Virus record (IMG/VR): IMGVR_UViG_3300024270_000054
From: a virus
Taxonomy: Duplodnaviria; Heunggongvirae; Uroviricota; Caudoviricetes
DNA: 64,000 bases
Direction: 5' to 3' (one strand)
The stretch's first letter is position 1, and every line of letters starts with the position of its first letter. Under the pieces are notes generated by a model, which saw nothing but the letters and a program-made list of their open reading frames with translations, was not told where the DNA came from and searched no databases. The translations under genes were made by a program, and so were the position numbers. Positions 1,926-58,198 of this stretch are shown in pieces.

Positions 1926-2314
1926 GAAAGTTGAGCGCAGCGTAGTTTGGGCTGGCGCTTCATAAAAACCTATAAAACCAAAGCAGATAAAGTATTGAGT
2001 AGTGAGTATAGAGCCACAGACGTTGAGCCGCGATTGTACAAGCCGGAGCATTGTAGCCCGTACAGCACATGCTCAGGTGCGGCAGGATGCCGGGGTTGGC
2101 GTATGCAAGGTGTAGCGCGGCGTTAAGCAGGAAGTGGTGGTGCAAATCCCCCTACCTCTTAGGCACCTTAAAATCAACGGACGTGAAAAAGCGATGAACA
2201 AACATAGAAATTAGCAATTAAGCAACTGCGGGTGCGAGAGTGCGCATATCGCATCGGCCATCGCTCGGACGGGTGAAAGTCCCGCCCCTCAATATCATCT
2301 GTACGGAGGAAATC

Positions 2315-2524
2315 ATGACAAGCAATCAGATCATCCGCATTATGGAACATCTTGGGTATAGGCATGAGACCCATCCTAGATATAAGGTTTTTCATGGAGA
2401 ATTTGATATCAAGGCATTTACTTCGTGGTCAGATTGCGAAGCATGGATGAAAAATCACCGCGATTATAAGAATGCCAGATATCGCGCTATGAGAGCGGCT
2501 AAAGAAATGAGAAAGAAAAAGTAA
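2315..2524 (+). CDS. hypothetical small protein
   Basis: RBS GGAGGA 5 nt upstream of ATG. 69 aa ORF. Confidence 0.45.
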   Translation: MTSNQIIRIMEHLGYRHETHPRYKVFHGEFDIKAFTSWSDCEAWMKNHRDYKNARYRAMRAAKEMRKKK

Positions 2525-2531
2525 TTTACAC

Positions 2532-2606
2532 TGAGGGTTCGCCAAGCGGTAAGGCACGGGACTTTGACTCCCGTATCGTTAGGTTCGATTCCTACACCCT
2601 CAGCCA
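2532..2606 (+). tRNA. tRNA-Gln (anticodon TTG)
   Basis: Cloverleaf by eye: acceptor tgagggt/accctca, anticodon stem cggga/tcccg with loop ctTTGac, T-arm ggttcgattcc, 3' CCA encoded. Confidence 0.75.
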
Positions 2607-2898
2607 TTTGAAGCAAAGGACAATCGGGGAATGGCGTGATGTGGAGCACTCATGCATGCAGGTGTTCAGTCGATAAAGCATCTATCCGAATCTTGATATA
2701 CGTTTGCTTCGATTTTCTGGCGATGGAGTATGCTGGTTCGATTCCAGCCTGACGGACTCAGGAGCTGCGGCAAGGATGCAGCAACATCGCCGTTTTTTAT
2801 ACTGCGTTGGACAAAAGGTTAAGTCGCCGCTTATTTCTAGGCGGAGCTGCGGGTTCGATCCCCGTGCGCGGTTCAATGTCAAATGAAACGAGGAACGT

Positions 2899-3279
2899 AT
2901 GAGGCATTTAGAAGCAGAGGATGTTGTCTGGTTTGTCAATCACAAGTGTGGCGAAATCGCCTACATGATCGACGAGGGAGATATCATCAGGATCTTCACC
3001 AAGGACAGCAAATGGATGATCTATAAGGATATCAATAGATGTTCGCAGGAGTACACGCTGTATCATAGCAGCTCGTCGAGCAATCACAAGCACTATCATG
3101 TGCAGATGACATCATTGCGTATGGATTATCTGATCTGGCGTGCATGCATCCATGATTACCCGGAAGCGCAGAAGAAGTTCGCTTCTTGGCCTCAGTTCCT
3201 TGCTTCGTTTGAGCTTTATCTTCTAGGCCGCGAGATCGCGGAGCGTGCATCGCTTTGGGATTTCGTTGTGGCGGATTGA
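2899..3279 (+). CDS. hypothetical protein
   Basis: 126 aa ORF with an upstream GAGGAA RBS. Confidence 0.5.
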   Translation: MRHLEAEDVVWFVNHKCGEIAYMIDEGDIIRIFTKDSKWMIYKDINRCSQEYTLYHSSSSSNHKHYHVQMTSLRMDYLIWRACIHDYPEAQKKFASWPQFLASFELYLLGREIAERASLWDFVVAD

Positions 3280-3283
3280 GCTT

Positions 3284-3360
3284 GCGCCATTAGCTCAGTC
3301 GGTACGAGCACGTGACTTTTAATCACGGAGTCCGGGGTTCGATCCCCCGATGGCGCACCA
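3284..3360 (+). tRNA. tRNA-Lys (anticodon TTT)
   Basis: Acceptor gcgccat/atggcgc, D-arm tagctcagtcggtacgagc, anticodon stem cgtga/tcacg with loop ctTTTaa, T-arm cggggttcgatccccg, CCA encoded. Confidence 0.85.
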
Positions 3361-3576
3361 AAGGCAGGTTACTGGTAAGATAGCCCTGTTCTCAACAAAA
3401 AGCCATCTTACAGGACGACAACCTTGCAGCGGCATCCACGATGGTGAGTAGTGGGTATTTGAAAGCTGAAACGATATGCCGCAAAATAGTCTCTGCATCG
3501 ATTAGCATAATGGCAGTGCCGATCCCTCCAAAGGATACGATTCTGGTTCGACTCCAGAGTGGATGCAGATTTTCAT

Positions 3577-3653
3577 GGGGCTGTAGCTCAGATGGCTAGA
3601 GCGCCTGCCTTGCAAGCAGGAGGTCGAGGGTTCGATTCCCTTCAGCTCCACCA
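3577..3653 (+). tRNA. tRNA-Ala (anticodon TGC)
   Basis: Acceptor ggggctg/cagctcc with a G3:U70 wobble (the Ala identity element). Anticodon stem cctgc/gcagg with loop ctTGCaa. T-arm gagggttcgattccctt. CCA encoded. Confidence 0.85.
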
Positions 3654-3687
3654 TCTATGCATTTATGCGTATAATATACGATCCATA

Positions 3688-4005
3688 ATGCGCAAATATA
3701 GGCATGTATGGATAATATATGCGCTATTTATACACAATAAAACGAGCATTTTATGGGGTGATCAAGTGTCGAAAATCAAATCTTTTCTTCAAAGCATTCC
3801 GCCGGATATCCTTGGCAGTGCGATTGCCTTAATCATTCTGTTCTTTCTGACGTTTGGCATCAACATGGTCAACGAAGGAAAGTGGAACGAGGGTGTTTGC
3901 CCGGATTGCTATACAGGCTATATGCTGCGTGGCGTGAGGAAGGGTTACAGCCATTACGTTTGCAGCGAGTGTGGCGATGAGATTATCCGCTACATGGAGT
4001 GGTGA
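3688..4005 (+). CDS. hypothetical small membrane / zinc-ribbon protein; the true start is uncertain and may lie further downstream
   Basis: The ORF-table start at 3559 overlaps tRNA-Ala and is not real. The C-terminal part has a TM segment and a CPDC...CSEC motif. Confidence 0.35.
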   Translation: MRKYRHVWIIYALFIHNKTSILWGDQVSKIKSFLQSIPPDILGSAIALIILFFLTFGINMVNEGKWNEGVCPDCYTGYMLRGVRKGYSHYVCSECGDEIIRYMEW

Positions 4006-4007
4006 TC

Positions 4008-4283
4008 ATGGCGCACAGATGGAACAGTGAAAACTTGAAGCGCCAGTACGAATGGGTAAAAGAGACGGCCATCAAGCAGGGGTTTAATGCGGAGGATCTT
4101 GATCCGCCTTATCTGGATAAGCTCAGTCACAAAACCAAGTCAAAGCGTATTTTCAGCTTCATCAAGCTTGCTTACTTCCTTGGCTGGCTCCGTGGCATTG
4201 CCTATGTGGATGGTGGGCTTACGCCTGTGACGCTGGATAAATGGGAGAAATGTGTATGGGAGAAAAGAAGTTCAGCAAATTGA
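4008..4283 (+). CDS. hypothetical protein
   Basis: ATG at 4008 directly after the upstream stop (coupled). 91 aa. Confidence 0.5.
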   Translation: MAHRWNSENLKRQYEWVKETAIKQGFNAEDLDPPYLDKLSHKTKSKRIFSFIKLAYFLGWLRGIAYVDGGLTPVTLDKWEKCVWEKRSSAN

Positions 4284-4531
4284 TCGTGAAGATTCACACC
4301 AAAGTATTTGATGCGGATTCGATCATGAAGACGGCACAGCCAGTCATTGATTTTGCCAATCAGCATGATATCGCTCTAAGGCTTGAGCGGGATGCAGCAG
4401 GTCAAGTCCTTGCCACCAGTATGGCGGAAGGATATACGAGCGCTTATTGCAAGGGTGCCGTTCAGGAGATCAAGGAAATGCTCAAGCGTGCGTTTTCTTG
4501 CAAGGTCGAGGTACTTTTGTACGCATATTGA
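4241..4531 (+). CDS. hypothetical protein (start may be ATG 4256)
   Basis: ORF with a GGGAGA RBS before the internal ATG. Confidence 0.45.
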   Translation: MGEMCMGEKKFSKLIVKIHTKVFDADSIMKTAQPVIDFANQHDIALRLERDAAGQVLATSMAEGYTSAYCKGAVQEIKEMLKRAFSCKVEVLLYAY

Positions 4532-4552
4532 TGAAAAAAGGAGAAAAAGAAA

Positions 4553-4840
4553 ATGGGTATGATGAATAAGAAGAAGACAACCGAGCAAGTCATTTCTGCG
4601 GCCACTACCAAGATTTCAGATGACGTCGCTCATCTGAACCTGATGCGCGAGAATGCCGTCAGGACGTTTAGACAGACTGCGCAGAGCTTGCAGGCCAATA
4701 ACGAGGAGCTTCAGGCTTCCGTTGAGCGCTTTACCATTCTGGAAAACTTCGCAAAGGGTAAGCGAGAAGAGTGTGTCCGCGCAATCGAGGACAATAACAA
4801 GGTTCGTGAAAAGATTCTGGAGATTATCGGCGAGGAGTAA
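4553..4840 (+). CDS. hypothetical coiled-coil protein
   Basis: AAGGAGA RBS. 95 aa. Confidence 0.55.
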   Translation: MGMMNKKKTTEQVISAATTKISDDVAHLNLMRENAVRTFRQTAQSLQANNEELQASVERFTILENFAKGKREECVRAIEDNNKVREKILEIIGEE

Positions 4841-4877
4841 AATCCTGCCTATACAAATAGGAAGGAACAGGTGAAGT

Positions 4878-5183
4878 ATGGAAAACACCGTTAAGGGAAC
4901 TCGACTGAAAACGGAGCTGTGCGCCCATCTTCTGTCTGTGCGCAGCGTTGCAAACGATGAGCAAAAGCATGCTCTTGATGTTGCAGTTCGCGTAATCGAC
5001 GAGATTGATAAGTACGCTTCTAAGCACGATCTTGCGTTGAGCTGCGGCGGAGAGTGGATGTATCAAAGCGACATGGGTCAGGTTGATGCGCTTGCGCTGG
5101 TATCCAAGATTCTTGATCGCCTGTCTGAGTACGCCGAAGATGATGAAGACGATGAAGAGTGGAGTGAAGACGATGATGAGTAA
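4878..5183 (+). CDS. hypothetical protein with acidic C-terminal tail (DDEDDEEWSEDDDE)
   Basis: GGAAGGAACAGG RBS. 101 aa. Confidence 0.5.
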   Translation: MENTVKGTRLKTELCAHLLSVRSVANDEQKHALDVAVRVIDEIDKYASKHDLALSCGGEWMYQSDMGQVDALALVSKILDRLSEYAEDDEDDEEWSEDDDE

Positions 5184-7440
5184 TCCGGCCATTGTGATTA
5201 ACGAAATTGTTCTGCGCCGAAGAAATAAGCTCACCATTCCTGAGCGCCACGCTGGGTTCTACAATCCAGACCGTGCCAATCTAGTGCTTGCCATGGCGAA
5301 GAATGTGGAGTCGTTAGGTTTTGCATTCTCCATGGATACGGCGACTCGTCTGCTGTATTACAACGACAAAGAGCTGGAAGACTTCTATAAGCAGCTCATT
5401 CCAATGCTCAAGAAGTTGGTCGGCGCGGATGTGGAGTATCATCCGATGTATCCGAACTTCCCACAGCAGGTTATCGATGCGCCTCTGATCGAGCTGTTCT
5501 TCAATGCGCTCATGCATTACGTGACGGATGGCGAGTATCTGCCGGAATACGTTAAGGAAGAGCGTCTTCCTATGCTTGATACGTGCAAGGCGAAAATTCT
5601 GACGCTTGCCGATGAAAACGGTGCAGACCTGATGGATATCTTCTCCAATCTTCTTAGAAGCAAGACTTCTCTGTCTGAGCAGGATAAAGCAGATGTGGAA
5701 TGGATTGTTTTAAACAATGTCAGCCATGTCAAGCATATGCCGGAAGAGATTCCGCTCAAGGAGAATGTGGCGTTCATTTCAAAGCTCATTATCGAAAAGT
5801 CGCCGCTAAAGTCGTCCAAGTGCATCGAGCGGTATTTCTCCACGGCGACGGATGTTCTTCGACTCATCGTTTCCATGTCTGATGGCGATATCAGCTTGGC
5901 TGATAAAACGAAGTTCAGGTCGCTCAAGAGATCGGAGCGCCGGATGATTCTGGATCTCCTTGCGCATTGCGGGGATATTTACGAAGACCTCTTCCGCTAT
6001 CGTGATGAGTGGATTCGCGTTGCAGAAATCCTGCATGTCGGAGAATATGTCGGTAAACCGAAATATCGCGGCGTATGCGATTATTTCAGGTCGCTTAGAA
6101 ACGATAAAAAGCCGCTTCTCTATCCGGGCTATGTGGAAACCATGATCGCCAAGGGCGATATGGTCGGGGCAGCTAATCTCCTGATGGAGCGTCCCGGCGA
6201 GTTTGCACGCAGGCTCGATAAGCTCATCCGCGATACGGATTGGCAAAAGGATATTGTGGACATGTTTGAAAAGGTTGCAGATCGTGTGGCCGTCCCGGTT
6301 CTTTTGCAGGTTCGTCAGCATTTCCTTGCTCGTCATAAGAACGATGCGCCCATTCGTGTCTTCTTCCCGAAGGGCAGCGTAGCGCATGCCATCGTTGAGC
6401 CAAATGAACTCAAACCCATCGACTACGAAATTTGCAGGCGCGTTGTCATGATCTGCAATAATGCAATCATCGCGCAGTTTAAAAAGGATAAGCCGGAGAT
6501 GGGCAGGGTTTATGTCGATCCTGAGCTGGAAAACTTCATGGTTCCGTTCAGCCAGCGCAGCGCGTCCAGCGGCAGCAAGATCATGGTTCGTGGTAGCTCA
6601 ATCCCGATCAGCAAGGATGCAAAGTTTGTCCGTGCGTTCATCTGGTGGACAAATACGGATAAGCAGATCAAGGATGAAGATTTGAATTATTGGCGCGGTG
6701 ATGAAAACCGCGTAGATATCGATCTTTCTGCCTGTATTCTCGATGAGGATTTCAAGTATGTATCCCATGTATCCTATACCAATCTGCGTTCCGGCTGTAT
6801 GGCCGTTCATTCCGGCGATATTGTCGATGGCGGAAGCGTAAAGGGTAAGGGCGTAGCAGAATTTCTCGACATCAATATTGATGAGGCTGCAAAGCATGGC
6901 CGTTATGTCTGCTTCCAAGTGTATAGCTTCACGCAGCAGCCGTTCTCGTCTATGCCAAATAGCCGATTCGGTTGGATGGAGAGGGAGAGCCAGAATTCCG
7001 GCGAAATCTTTGAGCCGCGCACGGTAGAGATGTGTATGAATGTGTCCTCTGACAGCAAGGTTTCCATTCCAGTCATCTTTGACTGCAAGGAGAAGCGATT
7101 TGTCTGGTTGGATATGTGCCTGTCTATCGACAGCTTTGCTTCCAGCAGAGGCAATAACATTGAAAACAACTTCTCTCAGGTTCAGGCCATCTGTTATGCC
7201 ATGATGCATCTCAACAAGCCCAATCTGTATGATCTGATTGCGCTCAATGCAAAAGCAAGAGGAACAATCACGGACAACCGCAACGAAGCGGATATCATTT
7301 TCAGCAATGACACGACCAAGCCCATCGAATGTGTGATGGTGGAAGGTTCTGAGCATCAGCTTGAAATGGTGAACCGTGAAAAGGACACACCAATCATTAC
7401 GGCCTTTGACATGGATTACATCATGGGTAATCTGCTGTAA
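5173..7440 (+). CDS. large protein (about 756 aa) with a C-terminal TerD-like domain; N-terminal ~500 aa of unknown function
   Basis: The C-terminal stretch VDIDLSACILDEDFKYVSHVSYTNLRSGCMAVHSGDIVDGGSVKGKGVAEFLDINIDEAAKHGRYVCFQVYSF follows the TerD pattern DLDxSA...DFVFYNN...HSGDNRTGEGDGDDE. The start was chosen at ATGATG 5173, after the upstream gene's stop. Confidence 0.55.
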   Translation: MMSNPAIVINEIVLRRRNKLTIPERHAGFYNPDRANLVLAMAKNVESLGFAFSMDTATRLLYYNDKELEDFYKQLIPMLKKLVGADVEYHPMYPNFPQQVIDAPLIELFFNALMHYVTDGEYLPEYVKEERLPMLDTCKAKILTLADENGADLMDIFSNLLRSKTSLSEQDKADVEWIVLNNVSHVKHMPEEIPLKENVAFISKLIIEKSPLKSSKCIERYFSTATDVLRLIVSMSDGDISLADKTKFRSLKRSERRMILDLLAHCGDIYEDLFRYRDEWIRVAEILHVGEYVGKPKYRGVCDYFRSLRNDKKPLLYPGYVETMIAKGDMVGAANLLMERPGEFARRLDKLIRDTDWQKDIVDMFEKVADRVAVPVLLQVRQHFLARHKNDAPIRVFFPKGSVAHAIVEPNELKPIDYEICRRVVMICNNAIIAQFKKDKPEMGRVYVDPELENFMVPFSQRSASSGSKIMVRGSSIPISKDAKFVRAFIWWTNTDKQIKDEDLNYWRGDENRVDIDLSACILDEDFKYVSHVSYTNLRSGCMAVHSGDIVDGGSVKGKGVAEFLDINIDEAAKHGRYVCFQVYSFTQQPFSSMPNSRFGWMERESQNSGEIFEPRTVEMCMNVSSDSKVSIPVIFDCKEKRFVWLDMCLSIDSFASSRGNNIENNFSQVQAICYAMMHLNKPNLYDLIALNAKARGTITDNRNEADIIFSNDTTKPIECVMVEGSEHQLEMVNREKDTPIITAFDMDYIMGNLL

Positions 7441-7610
7441 GGTTGTGTGTCAGCCTCCGGGCGTTCGCCCTTCATATAGACGGGGATTTCCCCAAATTTC
7501 GGCTGTGTCGTCCATCCTTCTTTCTAATTCTATACAGTGAGTGCTTTGCAGCTAAAAGCTGCGAAGTGTTCATAACAACAAGACCGGGTGACAGATTTCC
7601 GAAATTTCTA

Positions 7611-7660
7611 AAAATAAATCAGAAAAAGTATTGACAGATACAATCTGATGATGTATAATG
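7611..7660 (+). promoter_or_regulatory. sigma70-type promoter with the conserved upstream motif (AATCAGAAAAAGTA-TTGACA-17nt-TATAAT)
   Basis: TTGACA at 7631-7636 and TATAAT at 7654-7659 with a 17-nt spacer, preceded by the recurring CAGAAAAAGTA motif. Confidence 0.6.
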
Positions 7661-7990
7661 TAAGAGCAGTGAGGCCAAAGGAATAAAGCCGGAGGATAAT
7701 CTGCAATGTTGGCTGGATGCTTCATCCTTCTTCGCTTTGGGAGCTGCGTGTCGCAGGTTCGAGTCCTGCACCGCTGGCGTGTGCTGGCGGTTAGCTCAGT
7801 CGGTAGAGCAACAGATAGAAACGAGGCAGCGATTTCCAACATTTACATATAAGATTCGCATGATTCGGCTGAAAGGTTCATCCTTCTAACTAGGTATATT
7901 TTGAAGATTTCTAAGCAGAGCCTTTGATTTCCGATGATTGCGAATCTACTTCCCTAAAAAACCAAAGCAGAAAAAGTATAAACACATCTT

Positions 7991-8073
7991 GCGGGTGTGG
8001 CGGAATGGCAGACGCGGCAGATTTAGGATCTGTTGCCAAAAGCGTATGGGTTCAAATCCCTTCACCCGCACCA
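7991..8073 (+). tRNA. tRNA-Leu (anticodon TAG), type II
   Basis: Acceptor gcgggtg/cacccgc, anticodon loop ttTAGga, long variable arm, T-arm gggttcaaatccc, CCA encoded. Confidence 0.75.
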
Positions 8074-8076
8074 AAC

Positions 8077-8164
8077 GGCGAGTTGTCCGAGTGGTTTATG
8101 GTGATGGTTTGCTAAACCATTGGCGGGAAACCGCCCACAGGTTCAAATCCTGTACTCGCCGCCA
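8077..8164 (+). tRNA. tRNA-Ser (anticodon GCT), type II
   Basis: Acceptor ggcgagt/actcgcc, anticodon stem atggt/accat with loop ttGCTaa, variable-arm hairpin ggcgggaaaccgccc, T-arm acaggttcaaatcctgt, CCA encoded. Confidence 0.8.
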
Positions 8165-8173
8165 TTTTCCCAA

Positions 8174-8250
8174 TGATCTTTAGCTCAGTTGGTCAGAGCA
8201 AGTGACTCATAATCACTAAGTCTAGGGTTCAAGCCCCTAAAGATCAACCA
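8174..8250 (+). tRNA. tRNA-Met (anticodon CAT)
   Basis: Acceptor tgatctt/aagatca, D-arm tagctcagttggtcagagc, anticodon stem agtga/tcact with loop ctCATaa, T-arm tagggttcaagccccta, CCA encoded. Confidence 0.8.
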
Positions 8251-8254
8251 TCTC

Positions 8255-8349
8255 GCCGACGTGACGGAATTGGCAAACGGAGCGGACTTAAAATCCGCTG
8301 CTATCAAGCTTGTGGGTTCAAGTCCCATCGTCGGCACCATTTATATTGC
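8255..8349 (+). tRNA. tRNA-Leu (anticodon TAA), type II
   Basis: Acceptor gccgacg/cgtcggc, anticodon stem gcgga/tccgc with loop ctTAAaa, long variable arm, T-arm tgggttcaagtccca, CCA encoded. Confidence 0.75.
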
Positions 8350-8356
8350 GGAGTAG

Positions 8357-8433
8357 AGAAGTGGTCATCTCGTCAGCCTCATGAGCTGAAGATCGCTGGT
8401 TCGAATCCAGCCTCTCGCAACCATCTATCTGGG
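8357..8433 (+). tRNA. tRNA-like gene with CAT anticodon and an imperfect acceptor stem; possible tRNA-Ile2/Met or a pseudogene
   Basis: D stem gaga/tctc, anticodon stem tcagc/gctga with loop ctCATga, T-arm gctggttcgaatccagc, terminal CCA. The acceptor tgcggag versus ctctcgca pairs poorly (an A:C mismatch, G:U pairs and one extra nucleotide). Confidence 0.5.
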
Positions 8434-8438
8434 TGTAG

Positions 8439-8515
8439 CTCAGTTTGGTAGAGCGCGTGCTTTGGGAGCATGAAGTCGGGGGTTCGAATCCCTTCACTCA
8501 GACCATTTGCAGCAG
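8439..8515 (+). tRNA. tRNA-Pro (anticodon TGG)
   Basis: Acceptor ctgggtg/cactcag (one G:U), D-arm tagctcagtttggtagagc, anticodon loop ttTGGga, T-arm gggggttcgaatccctt, CCA encoded. Confidence 0.8.
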
Positions 8516-8518
8516 TAG

Positions 8519-9525: not shown

Positions 9526-9533
9526 GTAGTCAT

Positions 9534-16080: not shown

Positions 16081-16112
16081 GGGGAAATGCATAATTTCCC
16101 CTTTTAAAATAA

Positions 16113-16155
16113 TGCAGAAAAAGTATTGACAGAATATAATGTCTGGAGTTATACT
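16113..16155 (+). promoter_or_regulatory. promoter carrying the conserved motif (GCAGAAAAAGTA-TTGACA-18nt-TATACT); its spacer shares AATGTCTGGAG with the promoter at 19951
   Basis: TTGACA at 16126-16131 and TATACT at 16150-16155. Confidence 0.55.
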
Positions 16156-17664: not shown

Positions 17665-17949
17665 TTCGCCAAATAATAAAGCAGAAAAAATATATTGGGT
17701 GATTATAATGACGATACATGAATTTCAACATTGCGACGGCATGATGGGCGATGTTAAAACCCTCAATATGTACTTGGTAAGCTTCGAGGTAGATACCGGG
17801 GTTTTGTAAGCATGAATTTGAGATGATCGACGATAAAGTGCTAACGAATAAATCTGGCAATCCGTGTGATCATCTCAGGGTTTATCGCTGTAAGAAATGC
17901 GGGTATGTGCAGCGTGTGTATTCTAGGTCAATTTTTGAGGGATAAGAAA

Positions 17950-19935: not shown

Positions 19936-19950
19936 TATTATAAAAACAAA

Positions 19951-19991
19951 TCAGTAAAAGTATTGACAAACTGAATGTCTGGAGATATATT
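19951..19991 (+). promoter_or_regulatory. promoter carrying the conserved motif (TCAGTAAAAGTA-TTGACA-17nt-TATATT); a second degenerate motif copy follows at 20001-20015
   Basis: TTGACA at 19963-19968 and TATATT at 19986-19991. Confidence 0.55.
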
Positions 19992-20014
19992 ATAACCAAG
20001 ACAGAAAAAGTATA

Positions 20015-26478: not shown

Positions 26479-26502
26479 TTTGTCAAAAACATTAAGAAAT
26501 AA

Positions 26503-26544
26503 AGCAGATAAAGTATTGACAACAAGCGAGAGAAAGAATATAAT
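26503..26544 (+). promoter_or_regulatory. promoter carrying the conserved motif (AGCAGATAAAGTA-TTGACA-17nt-TATAAT)
   Basis: TTGACA at 26516-26521 and TATAAT at 26539-26544. Confidence 0.6.
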
Positions 26545-26908: not shown

Positions 26909-26950
26909 ATCATCAACAACCAAAGCAGAAAAAGTATGGAGGATATTACG

Positions 26951-34130: not shown

Positions 34131-34880
34131 ATGACGGATAGGGTTACATTGCATCAAGGAGACTGCCTTGAGCTGATGAAGGAGATCCCAAGTCACAGCA
34201 TCGATATGGTTTTGTGCGATCTTCCATATGGCGGAGTAACCAAGAACAAATGGGACTCCGCGCTTCCTCTGGATGAGCTGTGGAGGCAATACAAGCGAAT
34301 CATCAAGCCTAATGCTGCGATTGTGCTGTTTTCAGACGGCATGTTTGAAGCAAATCTGATGCTCTCCAATCCGAAAATGTGGCGGTACAATCTCGTTTGG
34401 GATAAGGTGCTTGTCACTGGATTTCTGAATGCAAACCGTATGCCACTCAGATCCCATGAAGAAATCTGCGTCTTCTATGATAAACAGCCAGTATATCATC
34501 CGCAGAAGACGATAGGGGAGAAGAATCATAGCAGCGGTGCAAAGAAGGATAGAGCAAACCATAATTATGGCTCATTCGATTTTGTTGATAATTCAGAATC
34601 GCTTGGCTGTATGAAGCATCCAAGAAGTATCGTTCGTTTTCAAAAGCCGCACGCTTCTAAGACGGTTCATCCAACTCAAAAACCTGTTGAGCTGTGTGAA
34701 TACCTGATCAAAACCTATACTGATGAAAACCATATCGTGCTGGATAACTGTATGGGTTCTGGCACAACGGGCATTGCCTGCGTCAATACAGGCAGGCGTT
34801 TTATCGGTATAGAAAAGGATGAAGGGTATTTCAGTATAGCAGAACGTCGAATTCGTGATGCAATTCATGACAACAAATAA
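34131..34880 (+). CDS. DNA methyltransferase (beta-class N6A/N4C; motif IV before motif I)
   Basis: CDLPYGG (DPPY-like motif IV) near the N-terminus and LDNCMGSGTTGIA (FxGxG motif I) near the C-terminus. Confidence 0.8.
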   Translation: MTDRVTLHQGDCLELMKEIPSHSIDMVLCDLPYGGVTKNKWDSALPLDELWRQYKRIIKPNAAIVLFSDGMFEANLMLSNPKMWRYNLVWDKVLVTGFLNANRMPLRSHEEICVFYDKQPVYHPQKTIGEKNHSSGAKKDRANHNYGSFDFVDNSESLGCMKHPRSIVRFQKPHASKTVHPTQKPVELCEYLIKTYTDENHIVLDNCMGSGTTGIACVNTGRRFIGIEKDEGYFSIAERRIRDAIHDNK

Positions 34881-34881
34881 T

Positions 34882-34922
34882 CCAGAAAAAGTATTGACTG
34901 AAACGTGGATTAGATGTATAAT
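34882..34922 (+). promoter_or_regulatory. promoter carrying the conserved motif (CCAGAAAAAGTA-TTGACT-17nt-TATAAT)
   Basis: TTGACT at 34894-34899 and TATAAT at 34917-34922. Confidence 0.6.
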
Positions 34923-34954: not shown

Positions 34955-35245
34955 ATGTTATGTAAGAAATGTTTTAAGCCGATGAAAGTGGTTGTCCAGT
35001 TTACCAAGGAAAAGGCGGTGACATTCAATCGCTGCCCGATCTGCTGGTTTGAAACGAGAAAGACACCTTTTCAATTCCCTAGTTTAAAACCAAAGCAGAC
35101 AAAGTATAAACAGAACAATGCGATTGCTCCACCGGAAAAGAAAAAGGAGCAAGGAAATGTACAACGCATACATTACAACAATCCGGGATCTAAGAAAGCA
35201 CAGCAACGCAGATCGTCTGCAGTGCGCAACAATCTTCGGAAATAA
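34955..35245 (+). CDS. small zinc-ribbon / basic protein; overlaps the start of the RNA ligase gene, so its extent is uncertain
   Basis: AGGAG RBS 8 nt before ATG 34955. CKKC...CPIC. Confidence 0.35.
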   Translation: MLCKKCFKPMKVVVQFTKEKAVTFNRCPICWFETRKTPFQFPSLKPKQTKYKQNNAIAPPEKKKEQGNVQRIHYNNPGSKKAQQRRSSAVRNNLRK

Positions 35246-40659: not shown

Positions 40660-40698
40660 CAAATAACCAAAGCAGAAAAAGTATATCGAGGTAATAAT

Positions 40699-48320: not shown

Positions 48321-48634
48321 TGAGCTATGAAGAGTTTGAAAAATACATGAGCAAAATCACGCGACTGCTTGATTTTGAAGACAGTATTCAGAATACTTGC
48401 AGAATATCCGGCTTTGATTGGTGCGAGATCAAACATCCAACGCTGATTGATGAATGTGTTGCGCTGCTTTCAATAATCATGGAAGATACGCAGGATGAAT
48501 GGATCAGCTATTGGGTGTTTGAGCTGGATTGCGGAAAGAAATATACGCAAGGCAGCGTGAAGGATGAAAATGGGAATGCAATTCCAATGAAGACTATCCG
48601 CGATTTGTATGACTATTTAACCTCTGAAAAATAA
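48317..48634 (+). CDS. hypothetical protein
   Basis: 105 aa, coupled. Confidence 0.5.
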   Translation: MMSYEEFEKYMSKITRLLDFEDSIQNTCRISGFDWCEIKHPTLIDECVALLSIIMEDTQDEWISYWVFELDCGKKYTQGSVKDENGNAIPMKTIRDLYDYLTSEK

Positions 48635-48676
48635 AGCAGAAAAACTATTGACATCATCAATAGATGGATGTAGAAT
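48634..48676 (+). promoter_or_regulatory. promoter carrying the conserved motif (AGCAGAAAAACTA-TTGACA-17nt-TAGAAT)
   Basis: TTGACA at 48648-48653 and TAGAAT at 48671-48676. Confidence 0.55.
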
Positions 48677-50173: not shown

Positions 50174-50604
50174 AGAAGATTTATACGGCAGGGAAAATGA
50201 GCGGTTTGACGCGCGAAGAGCAGCTTGGCTGGCGCACAGAGTTTGCTTCTTTGCTCGATGACGTTATGGGCATTAGCGTCAAAGTAGTTAATCCTCCGCT
50301 GTTCTATGACCCAAACGACCCGGATGCATCTAGCGTGGAGGCAGAGGCAAAAGAATGGGATCTTGCGCAGATTCGTGACAGCGATGTCGTCGTTATCAAT
50401 CTGGATGGCATTGAAGATAGCATTGGCACACATTACGAGCTTGGCTACATCAATGCAATCAACTCCTTCGGCAATAAACATATCTATGTTGTCGGCTTTG
50501 GCGGGAAGCGCGATCTTCATCCGTGGATTAAGCTCTCTTTGTTCAGGTGGGAGCCGAATGTCATTGCGGCAGCAGATTTTGTTGCTAAATTTTGCCTTTA
50601 TTAA
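50170..50604 (+). CDS. nucleoside 2-deoxyribosyltransferase-family protein
   Basis: IYTAGKMSG ... DSIGTHYELGYINA (NDT signature D.GT.FE.GYA). Confidence 0.65.
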   Translation: MKKIYTAGKMSGLTREEQLGWRTEFASLLDDVMGISVKVVNPPLFYDPNDPDASSVEAEAKEWDLAQIRDSDVVVINLDGIEDSIGTHYELGYINAINSFGNKHIYVVGFGGKRDLHPWIKLSLFRWEPNVIAAADFVAKFCLY

Positions 50605-50637
50605 TAATGCAGAAAAAGTATATTGAGGTGTAGTTTG

Positions 50638-55696: not shown

Positions 55697-56145
55697 AGGT
55701 AAATAAGGGCGATAAGATTAAGCTTGTCAAACCCATGGGCGCATTTCAGAACATCGGAGAAATCTGTGATGTTGTCGATGTAAACGAAGAGACGATTAGT
55801 TTCCGATTTGGCCGGGTGCATTTGGGCTTTATGTCTCATGATGAGTTTGAGAAGTATTTTGTCAAGCATATGGACAAGCCAGTAATTAAACCCGTCGATA
55901 TGGAAGAAATCGAACGTATGATCCAGAGAGCAGATATCAATGTTGAAAAGGTTTTTGATAGAACAACCGTCGTAACACTGAATCTGCCAAATGGTTTTCA
56001 GATTACAGAATCCTCTTCTTGCATTGACGCAAATAGCTATAATGAAAAGCTTGCAATTGAAATCTGCAAACGCAATCTGACAAAGAGGCTTGCGGAAATG
56101 GAAGCTTATCATAAGATGCAGTCGGCATATGAAATGAGCGTGTAA
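55693..56145 (+). CDS. hypothetical protein
   Basis: ATG overlaps the upstream stop. 150 aa. Confidence 0.5.
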   Translation: MKVNKGDKIKLVKPMGAFQNIGEICDVVDVNEETISFRFGRVHLGFMSHDEFEKYFVKHMDKPVIKPVDMEEIERMIQRADINVEKVFDRTTVVTLNLPNGFQITESSSCIDANSYNEKLAIEICKRNLTKRLAEMEAYHKMQSAYEMSV

Positions 56146-56148
56146 CGC

Positions 56149-57330
56149 ATGAACACATCCATATTCGTCCCGAAAAAACTGTGTGTCGGGTATTGCAATA
56201 GAAAAGATACGTATACGGGGAAACTGGCTTATGTTATCTATTACGACGCACAAGGGAAACTCAGAAAAGAAACGTCATGGCAGAATTGGCGAGATAATAC
56301 AATTGAGCCGCAAGAATTTGATAATGAGCCAACGGAAGGTTTTGTCATTAACAAGAAGGTCGGCGGCGTTGGGTATTACAACGTTCGTCAAACGTATGCC
56401 CGCGTTTACGATCCAAGAGGTTTTGAATTTGAGATCACGATTCCGAACCTCTTATGGATTCTTGAAAACTGTGATTGTATCAAGGGTAAGGGTTTGGTCG
56501 GCCAGTTTGTTTACGGATGGGATAACAAGGATCTTGTGCTTGTTCCGGTTGAATCACCTGATTATAAAGAGATTCAAGAAAAGGCAGATATTGCATTTGA
56601 CAATGGGTTCATCAAAGCCAGCCAACTCATCATCGGAGCTACTTATGAAAAAATGAATGGGCAGCGTTTTGTGTATATGGGCAAAGCCCCTCATTGGACG
56701 ATAGAGTTCAACCATGAGCAGCAGTCAGATGGATGGTTCTGGAATAGGAGATATCTTGGAACATACGAAAAACCAGTCAACGATCATAATAAATGGTACA
56801 ACGCAGATCATTTTAGACTCGGATACAATCTTCATCGCCTTGAGCGGAATGTGAAAGGCAAAGATAGATTCTGGTTTATCAACCTTGGCGAATCACGTTC
56901 AGAATACCTAAAAGGGCATGACTACGCAGAAAGCATGTCGTCCGTTTCCAAGAAGTTTATTAAGTGTGTAAGTACCAATACAGAAGAGTATGAAAGATAT
57001 CTCAGCATTTTAAAAAGTGATAGTTCATACTGCCCGATAGATTACGAAAATAGCGGCATCAGAAAACTGTCATTTGAAGATTTCAGACACCTCTATTCCA
57101 AATCTGTAGAACAAGAAGTTGGAAAATCATTTCACGCTTACAATGGCAAAGAAAGACCAGATAGTTACCGTTTTTATTACAAAAACGGACAGTGGCACAT
57201 CGACTGTACAAAGTATAGTAACGTGACATATGAAAACTTGGAAAAAATCTATACAGAACTTGTTCCGGTATATGGCGAGGAGATTCTTATGAATGGAAGC
57301 ATCAGTAGGAGGTATGGTTACTATGTCTAA
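56149..57330 (+). CDS. hypothetical protein (393 aa)
   Basis: Long ORF with no recognisable motifs. Confidence 0.55.
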   Translation: MNTSIFVPKKLCVGYCNRKDTYTGKLAYVIYYDAQGKLRKETSWQNWRDNTIEPQEFDNEPTEGFVINKKVGGVGYYNVRQTYARVYDPRGFEFEITIPNLLWILENCDCIKGKGLVGQFVYGWDNKDLVLVPVESPDYKEIQEKADIAFDNGFIKASQLIIGATYEKMNGQRFVYMGKAPHWTIEFNHEQQSDGWFWNRRYLGTYEKPVNDHNKWYNADHFRLGYNLHRLERNVKGKDRFWFINLGESRSEYLKGHDYAESMSSVSKKFIKCVSTNTEEYERYLSILKSDSSYCPIDYENSGIRKLSFEDFRHLYSKSVEQEVGKSFHAYNGKERPDSYRFYYKNGQWHIDCTKYSNVTYENLEKIYTELVPVYGEEILMNGSISRRYGYYV

Positions 57331-57721
57331 TAATGATGAACGAATTCTAGCGCTTAAAAAGCAAATCGATGAAAAGAGGAAGATTGTTGGTCGCGCATCA
57401 CGTTTTGCGCCAATCACAAACTGCATCCTACAAATGGATGGGCAGACCTATAATCTGCATGTATGCTGTGATGAACTGCTGCTGGTCAAACTCAATGCAT
57501 TGGCGATGTCAGCAAGCGATCTTGGTCTAAGCATTTATAAGCTCACAATCTCCGGTTTCAGTCTTGCAGACTGGATTGAAGACGTGAAAGGCTTGATTGA
57601 AGCGAAGATGATTAAGGAAGAAAAAGCGAAGCTTGATAAGCTTGAAAAGCAACTGGATTCTCTTCTTTCCAGCGATAAGCGCACAGAGCTTGAGATTGAT
57701 GCAATTGCTTCGCTCATCTGA
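57323..57721 (+). CDS. hypothetical coiled-coil protein
   Basis: GGAGG RBS. 132 aa. Confidence 0.5.
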   Translation: MSNNDERILALKKQIDEKRKIVGRASRFAPITNCILQMDGQTYNLHVCCDELLLVKLNALAMSASDLGLSIYKLTISGFSLADWIEDVKGLIEAKMIKEEKAKLDKLEKQLDSLLSSDKRTELEIDAIASLI

Positions 57722-57735
57722 CGGAGGCGATAAAA

Positions 57736-57924
57736 ATGTTCAAGGTTGTAACAATCAAGAAGAGCAATAAATTCGACTTTCAGGAAGAATGTGAGCTGTA
57801 TCTGAATAACGGATACAAGATGGCCTCTTCGGGCTACGCGCAAAACGCCTTTGAAAAAGCGGTTTCTGCCAACGATAAACATTGCTGGTGGGCGGTTTTC
57901 ACGCTTGAAAAGCCTGAAGGTTAA
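57736..57924 (+). CDS. hypothetical small protein
   Basis: 62 aa. Confidence 0.45.
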   Translation: MFKVVTIKKSNKFDFQEECELYLNNGYKMASSGYAQNAFEKAVSANDKHCWWAVFTLEKPEG

Positions 57925-57957
57925 GATAAAAGATGGGTTTTATTGGAGGTAAAAACA

Positions 57958-58167
57958 ATGAATCACAAGAGAATGAAATGGTTTGTCACGTTTGTCGTTG
58001 TGCTGTGGGTGATCATGTTTGCATGGTATGGACTTGAAGTTGCTCTTTGTGGAGCCAAGATGTACAGTGAAGTCGATTCTGTTCTTGCAGCAGTCATCTC
58101 AGTGCTGATCACGGATTCCATTGCATGCAAGAAGTGCAAGGATGAAAACACTATCGAAAACAACTAA
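57958..58167 (+). CDS. small membrane protein
   Basis: GGAGG RBS. TM helix WFVTFVVVLWVIMFAWY. Confidence 0.5.
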   Translation: MNHKRMKWFVTFVVVLWVIMFAWYGLEVALCGAKMYSEVDSVLAAVISVLITDSIACKKCKDENTIENN

Positions 58168-58198
58168 TACAGAAAAAGTATAAAGGGGACTGATTGAT

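What the first reader, a model, noticed from the sequence alone, without database searches (positions are those of the whole stretch)
1976..58182. Recurring ~20-nt motif AAGCAGAAAAAGTAT (at least 15 copies), in a long form fused to sigma70-like promoters and a short form 12-20 nt before start codons
Long form: (A/C)AGAAAAAGTA-TTGACA-17/18nt-TATAAT-like at 7611, 16113, 19951, 26503, 34882 and 48634, with a degenerate copy at 1976. Short form: AACCAAAGCAGAAAAAGTAT followed within about 12-20 nt by an RBS+ATG or a tRNA, at 7960, 17688, 20001, 26918, 35088, 40666, 50606 and 58168. The invariant part lies immediately 5' of the -35, so it is not the -35 itself. It could be an UP-element-like A-tract, the site of a phage-encoded activator or alternative sigma, or a T4-late-promoter-like single element (AAAAGTAT). 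Two long-form copies also share the spacer sequence AATGTCTGGAG.
Basis: seen in the sequence. Interest (0 to 1): 0.6.

Follow-up and report, generated by a model that had tools for sequence, protein, structure and literature searches.

The report
Dual-context regulatory motif in gut phage
A large temperate phage of gut Clostridia carries one 20-base sequence 16 times, either butted against its strongest host-type promoters or standing alone in tiny gaps between genes; this layout is best known from the operator and "stoperator" silencing sites of mycobacteriophages, but what reads the sequence here is still unknown.

Summary
A 23-nt position weight matrix (PWM) finds 16 strong copies of (A)AAA[AT/CC]AA(A/T)NCAGAAAAAGTAT. 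All are on the + strand, none on the − strand, and 15 of 16 lie outside genes.

- **Long form (7 copies).** The motif abuts, in a fixed register (GTA|TTGACA), a near-perfect sigma-70/sigma-A promoter scoring 11-12 of 12. It occupies −36 to −58, the UP-element/operator position.
- **Short form (9 copies).** No promoter core is present (6-8 of 12, which is background). Most copies fill 30-45 nt gaps between a stop codon and the next ribosome-binding site (Shine-Dalgarno, SD), or sit 11 nt before a tRNA.
- **Pairing.** Every long copy is followed by a short one 50-1973 nt downstream.
- **Relatives.** Related phages (DnaE 65-72% identical) keep the same dual layout but with their own motif variant, for example ATAACGCTAAATA.
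- **Rejected reading.** A T4-late-like −10 in GTATA is excluded, because the start site would fall inside or after the SD.

Best reading (about 0.4): an asymmetric DNA site for a sequence-specific regulator, acting as operator at early promoters and as an orientation-specific "stoperator"-like site between genes, as in mycobacteriophage L5. Rivals are a phage-specific promoter, a plain UP element with concerted evolution, and an RNA leader or processing site. No sigma factor, RNA polymerase or repressor was found in the 84 kb examined.

The parts
1871..1921 (+). Long form: motif 1871-1893, −35 TTGACA 1893-1898, 17-nt spacer, −10 TAAAAT 1916-1921 (preceded by TGG). Overlaps the 3' end of the reverse-transcriptase gene.
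   Evidence: 11 of 12 matches
1973..1995 (+). Short-type copy (TAAAACCAAAGCAGATAAAGTAT) followed by TGAGTA. No −10 and no nearby gene. Lies 102 nt after the 1879 promoter copy.
   Evidence: 6 of 12
2502..2524 (+). Weak copy (AAGAAATGAGAAAGAAAAAGTAA) 8 nt before tRNA-Gln. Membership doubtful.
   Evidence: 9.3 bits; tRNA
7609..7659 (+). Long form: motif 7609-7631, −35 TTGACA 7631-7636, 17-nt spacer, −10 TGTATAAT ending at 7659. Drives a Y-RNA-like/tRNA-like non-coding region.
   Evidence: 12 of 12
7957..7979 (+). Short form, 11 nt before tRNA-Leu, the first tRNA of a 7-tRNA array.
16104..16155 (+). Long form directly after an intrinsic terminator (GGGGAAAT..ATTTCCCC TTTT). −35 at 16126-16131, 18-nt spacer, −10 TATACT at 16150-16155. 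The spacer contains AATGTCTGGAG.
   Evidence: 11 of 12
17671..17693 (+). Short form (ATA variant, AAAATAT end), 14 nt before an ATG with an SD (GGGTG). A lone TATAAT lies 7 nt upstream of the 23-nt motif.
19941..19991 (+). Long form: −35 at 19963-19968, 17-nt spacer, −10 TATATT at 19986-19991. The spacer contains AATGTCTGGAG.
   Evidence: 11 of 12
19991..20013 (+). Short form in tandem with the long form at 19941-19991. It begins at the predicted transcription start of that promoter, 19 nt before the ATG at 20033.
26494..26544 (+). Long form: −35 at 26516-26521, 17-nt spacer, −10 TATAAT at 26539-26544. The first gene downstream is a 109-aa zinc-ribbon protein.
   Evidence: 12 of 12
26915..26937 (+). 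Short form filling a 42-nt gap. GGAGG starts immediately after GTAT, and the ATG is at 26951.
34872..34922 (+). Long form: −35 TTGACT at 34894-34899, 17-nt spacer, −10 TGTATAAT ending at 34922. Followed by a small CxxC..CxxC open reading frame.
   Evidence: 11 of 12
35085..35107 (+). Short form 49 nt before the RNA ligase start at 35157. The pair 'long form, about 210 nt, short form, rnl' is conserved in L152 and L197.
40662..40684 (+). Short form in a 39-nt gap between the SSB-like gene and the HD-domain gene that heads the replication module. Absent at this junction in all relatives checked.
48626..48676 (+). Long form upstream of thyX: −35 at 48648-48653, 17-nt spacer, −10 TGTAGAAT ending at 48676.
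   Evidence: 11 of 12
50599..50621 (+). Short form in a 33-nt gap, 16 nt before the nrdD ATG at 50638. This position is conserved in at least 4 other lineages, each with its own motif variant.
58159..58181 (+). Short form overlapping the upstream stop codon, 17 nt before the dUTPase ATG at 58199. Absent in relatives L001 and L193.

Best explanation
**Shown.**
- The window is the early/DNA-metabolism arm of a roughly 140-kb temperate phage of gut or rumen Clostridia.
- Seven copies of the motif sit in a fixed register against near-consensus host sigma-A-type promoters. These are the phage's strong early promoters.
- Nine further copies have no promoter core and occupy short gaps inside the operons those promoters drive.
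- All copies point the same way as transcription.

**Inferred mechanism.**
- The roughly 20-bp asymmetric sequence is a DNA site read by one sequence-specific DNA-binding regulator, most probably phage-encoded.
- At the promoters the site touches the −35, and in tandem cases a second copy covers +1 to +20. A bound protein would therefore occlude sigma region 4, the alpha C-terminal domain, or the start site, and so act as an operator.
- At the promoter-less copies a bound protein would act as an orientation-specific block to RNA polymerase reading through from upstream. The first such copy lies 50-421 nt behind 5 of the 7 promoters, giving a second lock on each early operon.
- This is how mycobacteriophage L5 gp71 silences its prophage through operators plus 'stoperators'.
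- When the site is unoccupied during lytic growth, the A-rich sequence at −36 to −58 probably also helps the promoter as an UP-like element.

**Not identified.** The regulator itself, and whether it represses in lysogeny or shuts off early genes during lytic growth.
For: **Motif statistics.** There are 16 copies, all on the + strand, none on the − strand, and almost all non-coding.

**Long forms.**
- They score 11-12 of 12 against TTGACA-17-TATAAT at one fixed offset, and they are the four best sigma-70-like hits in the first 20 kb.
- Apart from the two hexamers, the motif is the only element common to all seven. The spacers differ, except AATGTCTGGAG shared by two copies, and I saw no element shared downstream of the −10.

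**Short forms.**
- They score 6-8 of 12, equal to background, both downstream of and across the motif.
- Most fill 30-45 nt gaps between a stop codon and the next SD.
- Two sit just before tRNAs, so the function is not specific to translation.

**Pairing and tandems.**
- Long-to-short distances are 102, 348, 1567, 50, 421, 213 and 1973 nt.
- A tandem 'promoter plus second copy at the predicted start site' occurs in three lineages in front of different genes.
- In the tandem, the 5' part of the second copy (AACCA) lies upstream of the predicted start site yet is intact. This favours recognition at the DNA level.

**Relatives.**
- Long and short copies co-vary within each genome. L148 has ATAACGCTAAATA 5 times (2 long, 3 short). 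L152 has TTAAATCAGAAAAA (2 long, 4 short). L001 has CCAAYGCAGATAAAG in short copies and GCAAATAAAGTA in long copies.
- The L148 variant loses the A-tract, so A-tract/UP function alone is not what is conserved.
- In a relative with divergent transcription, the one leftward promoter carries the motif inverted.

**Lifestyle.** The phage is temperate: it has an integrase, an Xis-like gene and attP-like repeats. Its ten or so consensus promoters must therefore be silenced in a lysogen.

**Precedents.**
- L5-type repressors bind more than 20 asymmetric sites, both at promoters and in short intergenic spaces, with orientation tied to transcription (PMC9283540).
- SPbeta MrpR/SroF binds a long asymmetric repeated element at about 10 promoters (PMC10516654; bioRxiv 10.1101/2025.11.27.690993).
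Against: - No repressor or other DNA-binding regulator was identified. Pfam and PHROGs scans of the predicted + strand proteins of the window (minus-strand ORFs and the tRNA-overlapping ORFs left out), and the Pfam hits on record for the genes called in the 10-kb flanks (21 left-flank proteins were also scanned against PHROGs), found no HTH repressor.
- The integrase-like p319 keeps its catalytic residues and does not resemble MrpR.
- The only hint is a marginal OmpR-type winged-helix-like stretch in a 332-aa left-flank protein (E 0.18-1.4), which has no Pfam hit.
- No copies occur in the 10 kb of − strand late genes examined. L5 stoperators occur in both arms.
- A site ending at −36 is an unusual place for a repressor and the usual place for an UP element.
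- The same CAGAAAAAGTATTGACA occurs at single promoters of several unrelated small gut phages.
- Co-variation could come from gene conversion between copies. Promoter copies do share spacer blocks, which shows that such exchange happens.
- Short copies cluster in front of DNA-metabolism modules (tRNAs, rnl, the replication genes, nrdD, dut). Internal 'middle' promoters would do the same.
- No experimental data are available.
Confidence: 0.4

Rival explanations
1. Phage-specific ('middle') promoter. The roughly 20-nt block would be a complete promoter for a phage-encoded RNA polymerase, or for host core polymerase with a phage specificity factor. Transcription would start at or near its 3' end (around GTA). 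Short copies would be internal promoters that boost tRNAs, rnl, the replication genes, nrdD and dut. Long copies would be this promoter placed in tandem with a host sigma-A promoter, so that the same operon is read both early and later.
For: - The block is about 20 nt long, strictly co-oriented with genes and intergenic, with the SD directly downstream. T7-type promoter sets look like this.
- Variants are lineage-specific.
- Short copies precede DNA-metabolism modules, giving the architecture 'early promoter, small early gene, motif, middle genes'.
- A roughly 25-nt cassette has been gained in front of the HD/replication genes and dut.
- One same-species copy follows a GC-rich hairpin plus T-run, and another follows a strong hairpin (L159:5369 and 4943).
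- The motif is absent from the late arm examined.
Against: - No RNA polymerase or sigma factor was found in the window plus 20 kb of flanks, about 60% of the genome.
- Independent tandem promoters would not be expected to keep the fixed register GTA|TTGACA in all long copies and in all lineages.
- The upstream sequence behaves like part of the sigma-A promoter, also in unrelated phages.
- Most short copies have no terminator upstream.
- In L001 the short copies lack GTAT and run straight into the SD, leaving almost no room for a start site.
Confidence: 0.2
2. Plain UP element plus concerted evolution. The motif would be the A/T-rich upstream element bound by the host alpha subunit at strong early promoters. 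Short copies would be by-products, for example from deletion of the promoter core by recombination between the two direct repeats of a tandem arrangement. They would be kept alike by gene conversion (the phage encodes a Sak-type annealing protein) and would have at most a generic role as unstructured A-rich spacers before the SD.
For: - The position, −36 to −58, is the UP position.
- AGAAAAAGT matches 7 of 9 positions of AAAAAARNR (sequence; consensus from established knowledge, Estrem et al. 1999).
- The same CAGAAAAAGTA-TTGACA-17-TATAAT occurs at single promoters of several distinct groups of unrelated gut-phage contigs.
- Tandem direct repeats 50 nt apart exist.
- Promoter copies share spacer blocks, which shows exchange between copies.
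- A Sak-type single-strand annealing protein is encoded at 39594-40232.
- The motif is unstructured as RNA.
Against: - It does not explain why the short copy before nrdD is kept in at least 5 lineages, or the one before rnl in 3.
- It does not explain why CAG is near-invariant (15 of 16 copies).
- The short class has its own signature, ACCA against ATA in the long class. Free gene conversion would blur this.
- L148 keeps a shared variant without an A-tract.
- Copies also sit before tRNAs.
- Unrelated phages with the promoter sequence show no short copies.
Confidence: 0.18
3. RNA-level element. Once transcribed, the motif (…CAGAAAAAGUAU) would be an unstructured purine-rich leader next to the SD. 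It would be recognised by a phage or host factor as an endonuclease processing site, a 5' stabiliser, a translational operator or an antitermination (boxA/nut-like) signal. Long copies would be seen only in read-through RNA.
For: - Short copies lie in transcribed gaps immediately 5' of the SD.
- In three lineages, and perhaps at 17679, the predicted sigma-A start site falls at the 5' edge of a copy, so the motif would form the 5' end of the mRNA.
- The layout 'promoter, small gene, motif' resembles lambda pR-cro-nutR (established knowledge).
- There is no competing RNA structure.
- The phage has few terminators, so long copies are probably also transcribed.
Against: - An RNA role does not explain the fixed register with the −35.
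- Part of the conserved block in the tandem copies lies upstream of the predicted start site.
- Copies before tRNAs argue against translational control.
- No nuclease or RNA-binding candidate was identified.
- No complementary RNA is encoded in the window.
Confidence: 0.12

Closest known systems
Operator/stoperator sites of the immunity repressor of Cluster A mycobacteriophages (L5 gp71; TipsytheTRex repressor)
   Same: One asymmetric site occurs in many copies (more than 20 in L5, 16 per 64 kb here). It is found both at early promoters and in short intergenic spaces without promoters. Its orientation follows transcription, the site sequence is lineage-specific, and the phage is temperate (PMC9283540).
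   Different: The L5 site is 13 bp and G/C-rich, overlaps the −35, and occurs in both genome arms. Here the site is about 20 bp, A-rich, ends at −36, and is seen only in the early arm. No gp71-like repressor was found. The host is Clostridia, not Actinobacteria. The function is untested.
Sigma-70/sigma-A promoters with an UP element (rrnB P1; strong early promoters of T4, T5 and SPO1)
   Same: The long form is TTGACA-17-TATAAT, often with a TG extension, preceded at −38 to −58 by A-rich DNA that matches the proximal UP consensus at 7 of 9 positions.
   Different: UP elements are degenerate and always attached to a promoter. This block has an invariant CAG, changes as a unit between lineages, and is reused 9 times without any promoter core.
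SPBRE/Phi3TRE repeated element bound by the integrase-fold repressor MrpR (YopR/SroF) of SPbeta-like phages
   Same: A long asymmetric repeated element lies at about 10 early promoters of a large (about 134 kb) temperate Firmicutes phage and is read by a monomeric master repressor (PMC10516654; bioRxiv 10.1101/2025.11.27.690993). From my own knowledge, not checked here: SPbeta has a DnaE-type polymerase.
   Different: In the papers read, MrpR peaks and SPBRE copies were reported in the promoter regions of about 10 genes, and no promoter-less role was described. The integrase-like protein near the window keeps its catalytic HxxR..Y residues and shows no sequence similarity to MrpR.
Start-associated sequences (SAS) of Cluster K mycobacteriophages
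   Same: A conserved asymmetric motif lies immediately upstream of the start codons of a subset of genes inside operons. Its function is unknown (PMC3203893, title and abstract; site details from my own knowledge).
   Different: SAS includes the ribosome-binding site and is not attached to promoters. Here the motif stops before the SD, also precedes tRNAs, and is fused to −35 boxes.
T7-type phage RNA polymerase promoters and T4 middle/late promoters
   Same: These are multi-copy, roughly 20-nt, lineage-specific blocks co-oriented with genes, with internal copies in front of DNA-metabolism genes.
   Different: No phage polymerase, sigma factor, or MotA/AsiA-like factor was found. A −10-type reading of GTATAWW is geometrically excluded. 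The fixed fusion to a host promoter has no counterpart in those systems.

Membership tests
Sigma-70/sigma-A promoter (long form) | −35 TTGACA and −10 TATAAT hexamers separated by 16-18 bp | tested here: met
   All 7 long copies score 11-12 of 12 at one fixed offset. Random 49-nt windows have a median of 6-7.
Sigma-70/sigma-A promoter (long form) | Transcription starts 6-8 nt after the −10 | not testable with these tools
   No transcript data are available.
Sigma-70/sigma-A promoter (short form) | A −35/−10 pair downstream of or across the motif | tested here: not met
   Scores are 6-8 of 12 downstream and 6-9 of 12 across the motif, equal to background. The exception is the tandem copy at 19999, which sits behind its long partner.
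UP element | A/T-rich DNA at −40 to −60 matching AAAAAARNR (−46 to −38) | tested here: met
   CAGAAAAAG occupies −46 to −38, a 7-of-9 match, and a second A-run lies at −52 to −57 (sequences).
UP element | Works only as part of a promoter, through the alpha C-terminal domain; sequence requirements are loose | tested here: not met
   Nine copies lack a promoter. CAG is present in 15 of 16 copies. The L148 variant ATAACGCTAAATA has no A-tract but is shared by long and short copies. Alpha binding itself is not testable here.
L5-type operator/stoperator system | One asymmetric site, many copies, both at promoters and in short promoter-less intergenic spaces | tested here: met
   7 promoter-linked and 9 promoter-less copies in the window, with 5 more in the left flank (3 promoter-fused, 2 promoter-less).
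L5-type operator/stoperator system | Site orientation follows the direction of transcription in both arms | tested here: inconclusive
   16 of 16 copies are co-oriented with + strand genes. No copies occur in 10 kb of − strand late genes. In a relative, one leftward promoter carries the inverted motif.
L5-type operator/stoperator system | A cognate monomeric repressor (gp71-like HTH plus stoperator domain) | tested here: not met
   No repressor-like family was found in the 84 kb examined. About 40% of the genome was not seen.
L5-type operator/stoperator system | A bound site stops elongation in one orientation only | not testable with these tools
   Needs reporter or RNA-seq experiments.
T4-late-like or other −10-only sigma-70-family promoter | The element lies at −12 to −7, so the start site 6-8 nt downstream must precede the SD of the gene served | tested here: not met
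   The SD begins 0-3 nt after GTAT at 26923, 17679, 40670, 50607 and 58167. The start site would fall in or after the SD.
T7-type single-subunit polymerase promoter | A phage-encoded RNA polymerase is present | tested here: not met
   No RNA_pol or other polymerase family was found in the window or flanks. The rest of the genome was not seen.
SPBRE / MrpR (SroF) system | Integrase-fold repressor lacking the catalytic tyrosine | tested here: not met
   The nearby 319-aa integrase-like protein aligns to IntI4 with HxxR and Y conserved, and gives no hit to MrpR chains.
Cluster K start-associated sequence | The motif contains the SD and lies 3-8 bp before the start codon only | tested here: not met
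   The motif excludes the SD, lies 13-49 nt from the ATG, and also occurs before tRNAs and −35 boxes.

The most novel reading that the evidence does not exclude
A genome-wide operator/stoperator-type silencing system operates in a clade of roughly 100-165 kb temperate phages of gut and rumen Clostridia. So far this kind of system is known only in Cluster A mycobacteriophages. Here it would be read by an unrecognised repressor family that co-evolves with a 20-bp asymmetric site doubling as the UP region of the early promoters. An alternative of similar novelty is that the block is the promoter of an unrecognised phage transcription factor or polymerase hidden among the many genes of unknown function.
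Probability: 0.35. Interest if true: 0.65.

Novelty: new variant of a known kind. Interest (0 to 1): 0.5.

Why it matters
These large uncultivated phages are widespread. Exact copies of two window proteins are listed in 96 and 61 blocks of the assembly index and were read on 23-24 contigs each. The phages carry anti-defence and metabolic cargo: NAD salvage genes, a Tad2-like protein, RNA repair genes, tRNAs and diversity-generating retroelements. Their regulation is unknown.

A single portable 20-bp module that marks every strong early promoter and also punctuates the operons gives a direct handle on three things:
- mapping the phage's transcription units;
- finding its master regulator, by DNA pull-down with one oligonucleotide;
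- predicting immunity groups from the motif variant.

If the promoter-less copies prove to be roadblocks, elongation-level silencing would extend from actinobacteriophages to Firmicutes phages. If they prove to be promoters, they point to an unrecognised phage transcription factor.

Tried and rejected
**Readings rejected**
- T4-late-like or −10 reading of GTATAWW: rejected on SD geometry.
- Hidden sigma-70 core near short copies: rejected.
- Conserved RNA structure or a trans-encoded complementary RNA: none found.
- Terminators upstream of short copies, which would have forced a promoter reading: only one convincing case (L159:5369) among 11.
- CodY box (AATTTTCWGAAAATT): compared by eye, only 8 of 15 matches in the window and worse in L148. 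Dropped.
- 16S anti-SD pairing and a boxA resemblance: considered by eye, no convincing match.
- Recombination-linker-only model: does not explain the fixed distances to the −35 and SD.

**Searches that led nowhere**
- Megablast of 8 kb against isolated phages: no match.
- Literature search for the promoter string: nothing relevant.
- YonO-type polymerase idea: the two 750-800-aa unknown proteins are not polymerases. One is a tail-fibre-like FN3-repeat protein, the other an unknown PHROG family.
- Left-flank integrase-like p319 as an MrpR-like repressor: not supported.
- Left-flank p332: only a marginal winged-helix hint, and no homologue in isolated phages.
- Clostridioides phage pCD1602_4 (DnaE 50% identical, 27% GC): fetched whole. 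Its promoters share no such motif, so it is too distant to help.
- Late-arm intergenic regions: no shared motif.

Full report
**What the window is.** Genes run almost entirely on the + strand from 1 to about 61.3 kb. The window holds 16 tRNAs. It also encodes a DnaE-type polymerase, DnaB, a primase, NrdD, ThyX, dUTPase, an RNA ligase, a polynucleotide kinase/HD protein, a Thg1-like protein, NAD-salvage enzymes and a Tn916-type integrase. After the integrase come attP-like repeats, and then tail-fibre-like genes on the − strand.

No isolated phage is close. The best DnaE match is Clostridioides phage pCD1602_4 at 50% identity, followed by large Bacillus siphophages at 44%. Relatives with 65-72% DnaE identity come from gut and rumen viromes and from Clostridia and Ruminococcus metagenome-assembled genomes. 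Same-species contigs of up to 140 kb are common. This is the early/DNA-metabolism arm of a large temperate Clostridia phage.

**Check of the observation.** The motif is real and far above chance. With up to 2 mismatches there are 18 hits against 0.22 expected, all on the + strand.

A 23-nt PWM gives a two-group picture:
- 16 sites score at least 29 bits;
- the next best score 15.5 bits (279, inside a gene) and 9.3 bits (2510, 8 nt before tRNA-Gln);
- nothing on the − strand reaches 8 bits.

One full promoter-linked copy (1879) was missed, and the 'degenerate' copy at 1976/1981 is really of the promoter-less type. The shared spacer AATGTCTGGAG is confirmed at 16138-16148 and 19974-19984.

**Anatomy.**

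*Long form* (1879, 7617, 16112, 19949, 26502, 34880, 48634):
- The sequence is aAAAATAA(A/T)NCAGAAAAAGTA followed at once by TTGACA, 17 nt (18 once), then TATAAT-like, often with a TG extension.
- Scores are 11-12 of 12 at one fixed offset.
- These are the four best sigma-70-like sites in the first 20 kb.

*Short form* (1981, 7965, 17679, 19999, 26923, 35093, 40670, 50607, 58167):
- The same core is usually preceded by ACCA instead of ATA.
- It is followed by A(T/A)(T/A), and there is no promoter core. Scores are 6-8 of 12 downstream and 6-9 of 12 across the motif, which is background.
- Seven of the nine end 11-19 nt before a start codon or a tRNA.
- In five, the SD begins 0-3 nt after GTAT.
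- Several fill the whole 31-42 nt gap between a stop codon and the next SD.

*Pairing:* each long copy is followed by a short one at +102, +348, +1567, +50, +421, +213 and +1973 nt. At 19949/19999 the short copy starts at the predicted transcription start of the long-form promoter.

*RNA:* the transcribed motif is unstructured, and no complementary sequence is encoded in the window.

**Flanks.**
- The 10 kb to the left, read from same-species contigs, adds at least five copies. Three are fused to promoters (L159 about 2213, about 3822 and 9287). Two are promoter-less (4943 after a strong hairpin; 5369 after a GC hairpin plus T-run).
- The 10 kb to the right, which holds − strand late genes, has none on either strand, and its intergenic regions share no other motif.

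**Comparative evidence.**

The dual layout recurs in relatives, each with its own version of the block:
- L001: short CCAAYGCAGATAAAG running straight into the SD; long AATGCAAATAAAGTATTGACA.
- L152/L154: TTAAATCAGAAAAA, with 2 long and 4 short copies in L152.
- L148: ATAACGCTAAATA, five + strand copies (2 long, 3 short). It differs from the window block at four positions and lacks the A-tract.
- L175/L202/L208, L197, and the contigs 3300006153_000310 and 3300035497_000375 have window-like blocks.
- L153, L138 and L003 showed none.

Positions are partly conserved:
- The short copy before nrdD is present in at least five lineages.
- The unit 'long form, 44-aa zinc-ribbon ORF, short form, rnl' is present in three lineages.
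- The copies before the HD/replication genes and before dut are absent in relatives. There the stop codon and SD are only about 12-15 nt apart, so a roughly 25-nt cassette has been gained or lost.

The tandem 'promoter plus second copy at the start site' occurs in three lineages in front of different genes.

Several unrelated small gut-phage contigs carry CAGAAAAAGTATTGACA-17-TATAAT once each, at real promoters and with no short copies. Given A-rich upstream regions and the size of the collection, this number is compatible with convergence on an UP-like sequence.

**What can be excluded.**
- A sigma-70-family −10 in GTATAWW (the T4-late-like idea) is excluded. The start site would lie in or beyond the SD of clearly defined genes such as nrdD, whose N-terminus is conserved.
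- The short copies hide no sigma-A core.
- A purely translational role is unlikely, because copies also precede tRNAs and −35 boxes.
- A plain UP element cannot account for nine promoter-less copies, the near-invariant CAG, or the L148 variant.

**Most likely mechanism (inferred, about 0.4).** The block would be a DNA site for one sequence-specific regulator.

The argument for this reading:
- The phage is temperate, and at least ten near-consensus promoters must be silenced in a lysogen.
- Apart from the two hexamers, the block is the only element common to all seven long-form promoters. It touches the −35, and in tandem cases it also covers +1 to +20.
- The promoter-less, strictly co-oriented copies in short intergenic spaces, often just behind a promoter, match the operator/stoperator design of mycobacteriophage L5. 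In that system a monomeric repressor binds more than 20 asymmetric sites at promoters and between genes, in an orientation tied to transcription (PMC9283540).
- SPbeta shows that large Firmicutes phages use a long asymmetric repeated element with a master repressor (PMC10516654; bioRxiv 10.1101/2025.11.27.690993).
- When unoccupied, the block probably also serves as an UP-like element.

The weaknesses of this reading:
- No regulator was identified. Pfam and PHROGs searches found no sigma factor, polymerase or repressor in 84 kb.
- The 319-aa integrase-like protein keeps its catalytic residues.
- A 332-aa left-flank protein has only a marginal OmpR-type winged-helix-like stretch.
- No sites were seen in the late arm.
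- Gene conversion could mimic co-variation.

**Rivals.**
- *Phage-specific middle promoter (about 0.2).* It fits the block size, the lineage-specific variants, the genes served and the gained cassettes. It lacks a polymerase or sigma candidate and does not explain the fixed register with the −35.
- *UP element plus concerted evolution, with short copies as by-products (about 0.18).* It fits the position and the evidence for exchange between copies. It does not fit the positional conservation or the class-specific ACCA signature.
- *RNA leader, processing or antitermination element (about 0.12).* It fits the placement at the start site and the 'promoter, small gene, motif' layout. It does not fit the −35 register, or the conservation of the part that lies upstream of the predicted start site.

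**Novelty.** The long form is an ordinary kind of object: a strong host-type early promoter with conserved upstream DNA. Reuse of the same block without a promoter, co-varying across a phage clade, is known in this form only for Cluster A mycobacteriophages. As far as my searches of the held literature show, it has not been described for Firmicutes phages. I therefore rate the finding as a new variant of a known kind, of moderate interest, with the mechanism open and directly testable.

Noticed in passing
window 121-206, 245-610, 640-725, 831-1925: A diversity-generating retroelement. The variable repeat (121-206) lies at the 3' end of a DUF6273-type target gene. The template repeat (640-725) is 80% identical to it, and the differences fall at template adenines. 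Between them is a 121-aa Avd-like gene, and a reverse transcriptase gene follows. A second reverse transcriptase with its own template-like A-rich repeat lies in the right flank (L161 16650-18446; L162 12377-13766).
   Followed up: partly
window 7732-7835 (with 5173-7440): A Y-RNA-like (YrlA) match, full model length, E 5.5e-5, below the Rfam gathering score. It lies between the long-form promoter at 7617 and the short copy at 7965, just downstream of a 755-aa protein of unknown PHROG family. The pair could be a Ro-like protein with its Y RNA.
   Followed up: no
window 27869-32798: A run of NAD-related genes: isochorismatase/nicotinamidase-like, PRPP synthetase-like, NAMPT, a faint sub-threshold macro-domain match in the 154-aa gene at 30691-31155, NAD synthase, and an RlaP-like nucleotidyltransferase. 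A NADAR gene lies at 58633-59082. This looks like an NAD-reconstitution counter-defence module.
   Followed up: no
window 15667-16080: A Tad2-like (anti-Thoeris) domain protein (Pfam E 1e-15).
   Followed up: no
window 35157-39339: An RNA-repair set: RNA ligase, a kinase (AAA_33) plus HD phosphatase, and a Thg1-like 3'-5' polymerase. Together with the 16 tRNA genes (2532-11069) this suggests a defence against anticodon nucleases.
   Followed up: no
window 6821, 12003, 16834, 16942, 19483, 23565, 28964, 35494, 55772: TTGTCGATG occurs 10 times against 0.86 expected, 9 times on the + strand. All nine + strand copies are inside genes and in the same codon phase (nTT GTC GAT Gnn, a hydrophobic residue followed by Val-Asp-X). 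This is probably a peptide or codon-usage effect rather than a DNA signal.
   Followed up: partly
window 61320-61550: Three copies of ACTGTAGTCAAA lie directly after the Tn916-type integrase (60046-61284) and the DUF6462 Xis-like gene (59775-59957). They look like arm-type integrase sites of an attP region. The integrase has its own promoter (TTGACT-17-TAAAAT, about 59960-59990) without the motif.
   Followed up: partly
window 16132-16155, 19969-19991; L159 about 2228-2255: A subfamily of the long-form promoters shares the block (AATGT)CTGGAG(T/A)TATA(C/T)T across the spacer and −10. This points to recent duplication or gene conversion between promoters.
   Followed up: partly
window 34955-35245: The small CxxC..CxxC ORF after the 34880 promoter reads through the short motif (encoding ..KPKQTKY..) and overlaps the start of rnl. 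In L152 the 44-aa homologue stops just before the motif.
   Followed up: partly
L176, L181, L183 (contigs 3300006153_000310 and 3300035497_000375): In these relatives several long-form promoters are followed at the predicted start site by a shared palindrome, tAtAGTAAATGAgTTACTa. This may be a separate operator that is absent from the window.
   Followed up: no
L165 4738-5049; L196 10850-11246: Relatives encode a tmRNA, followed by tRNA-Gln, 70-100 nt downstream of a long-form promoter. In the window the matching stretch (1926-2531) has no tmRNA detected and contains the orphan short copy at 1981.
   Followed up: no
L158 7830-9272: One strain variant carries a TnpB (Cas12f-like) gene inserted immediately upstream of the long-form promoter at L158:9287. 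Other strains (L159, L160) lack it.
   Followed up: no
L200+L181 (contig 3300035497_000375, 55.0-64.8 kb): This is a divergent region in a relative. One long-form promoter points leftward and the + strand genes start about 1.9 kb away, behind a short-type copy. The stretch between has no convincing ORF and could be the regulatory switch or the origin.
   Followed up: no
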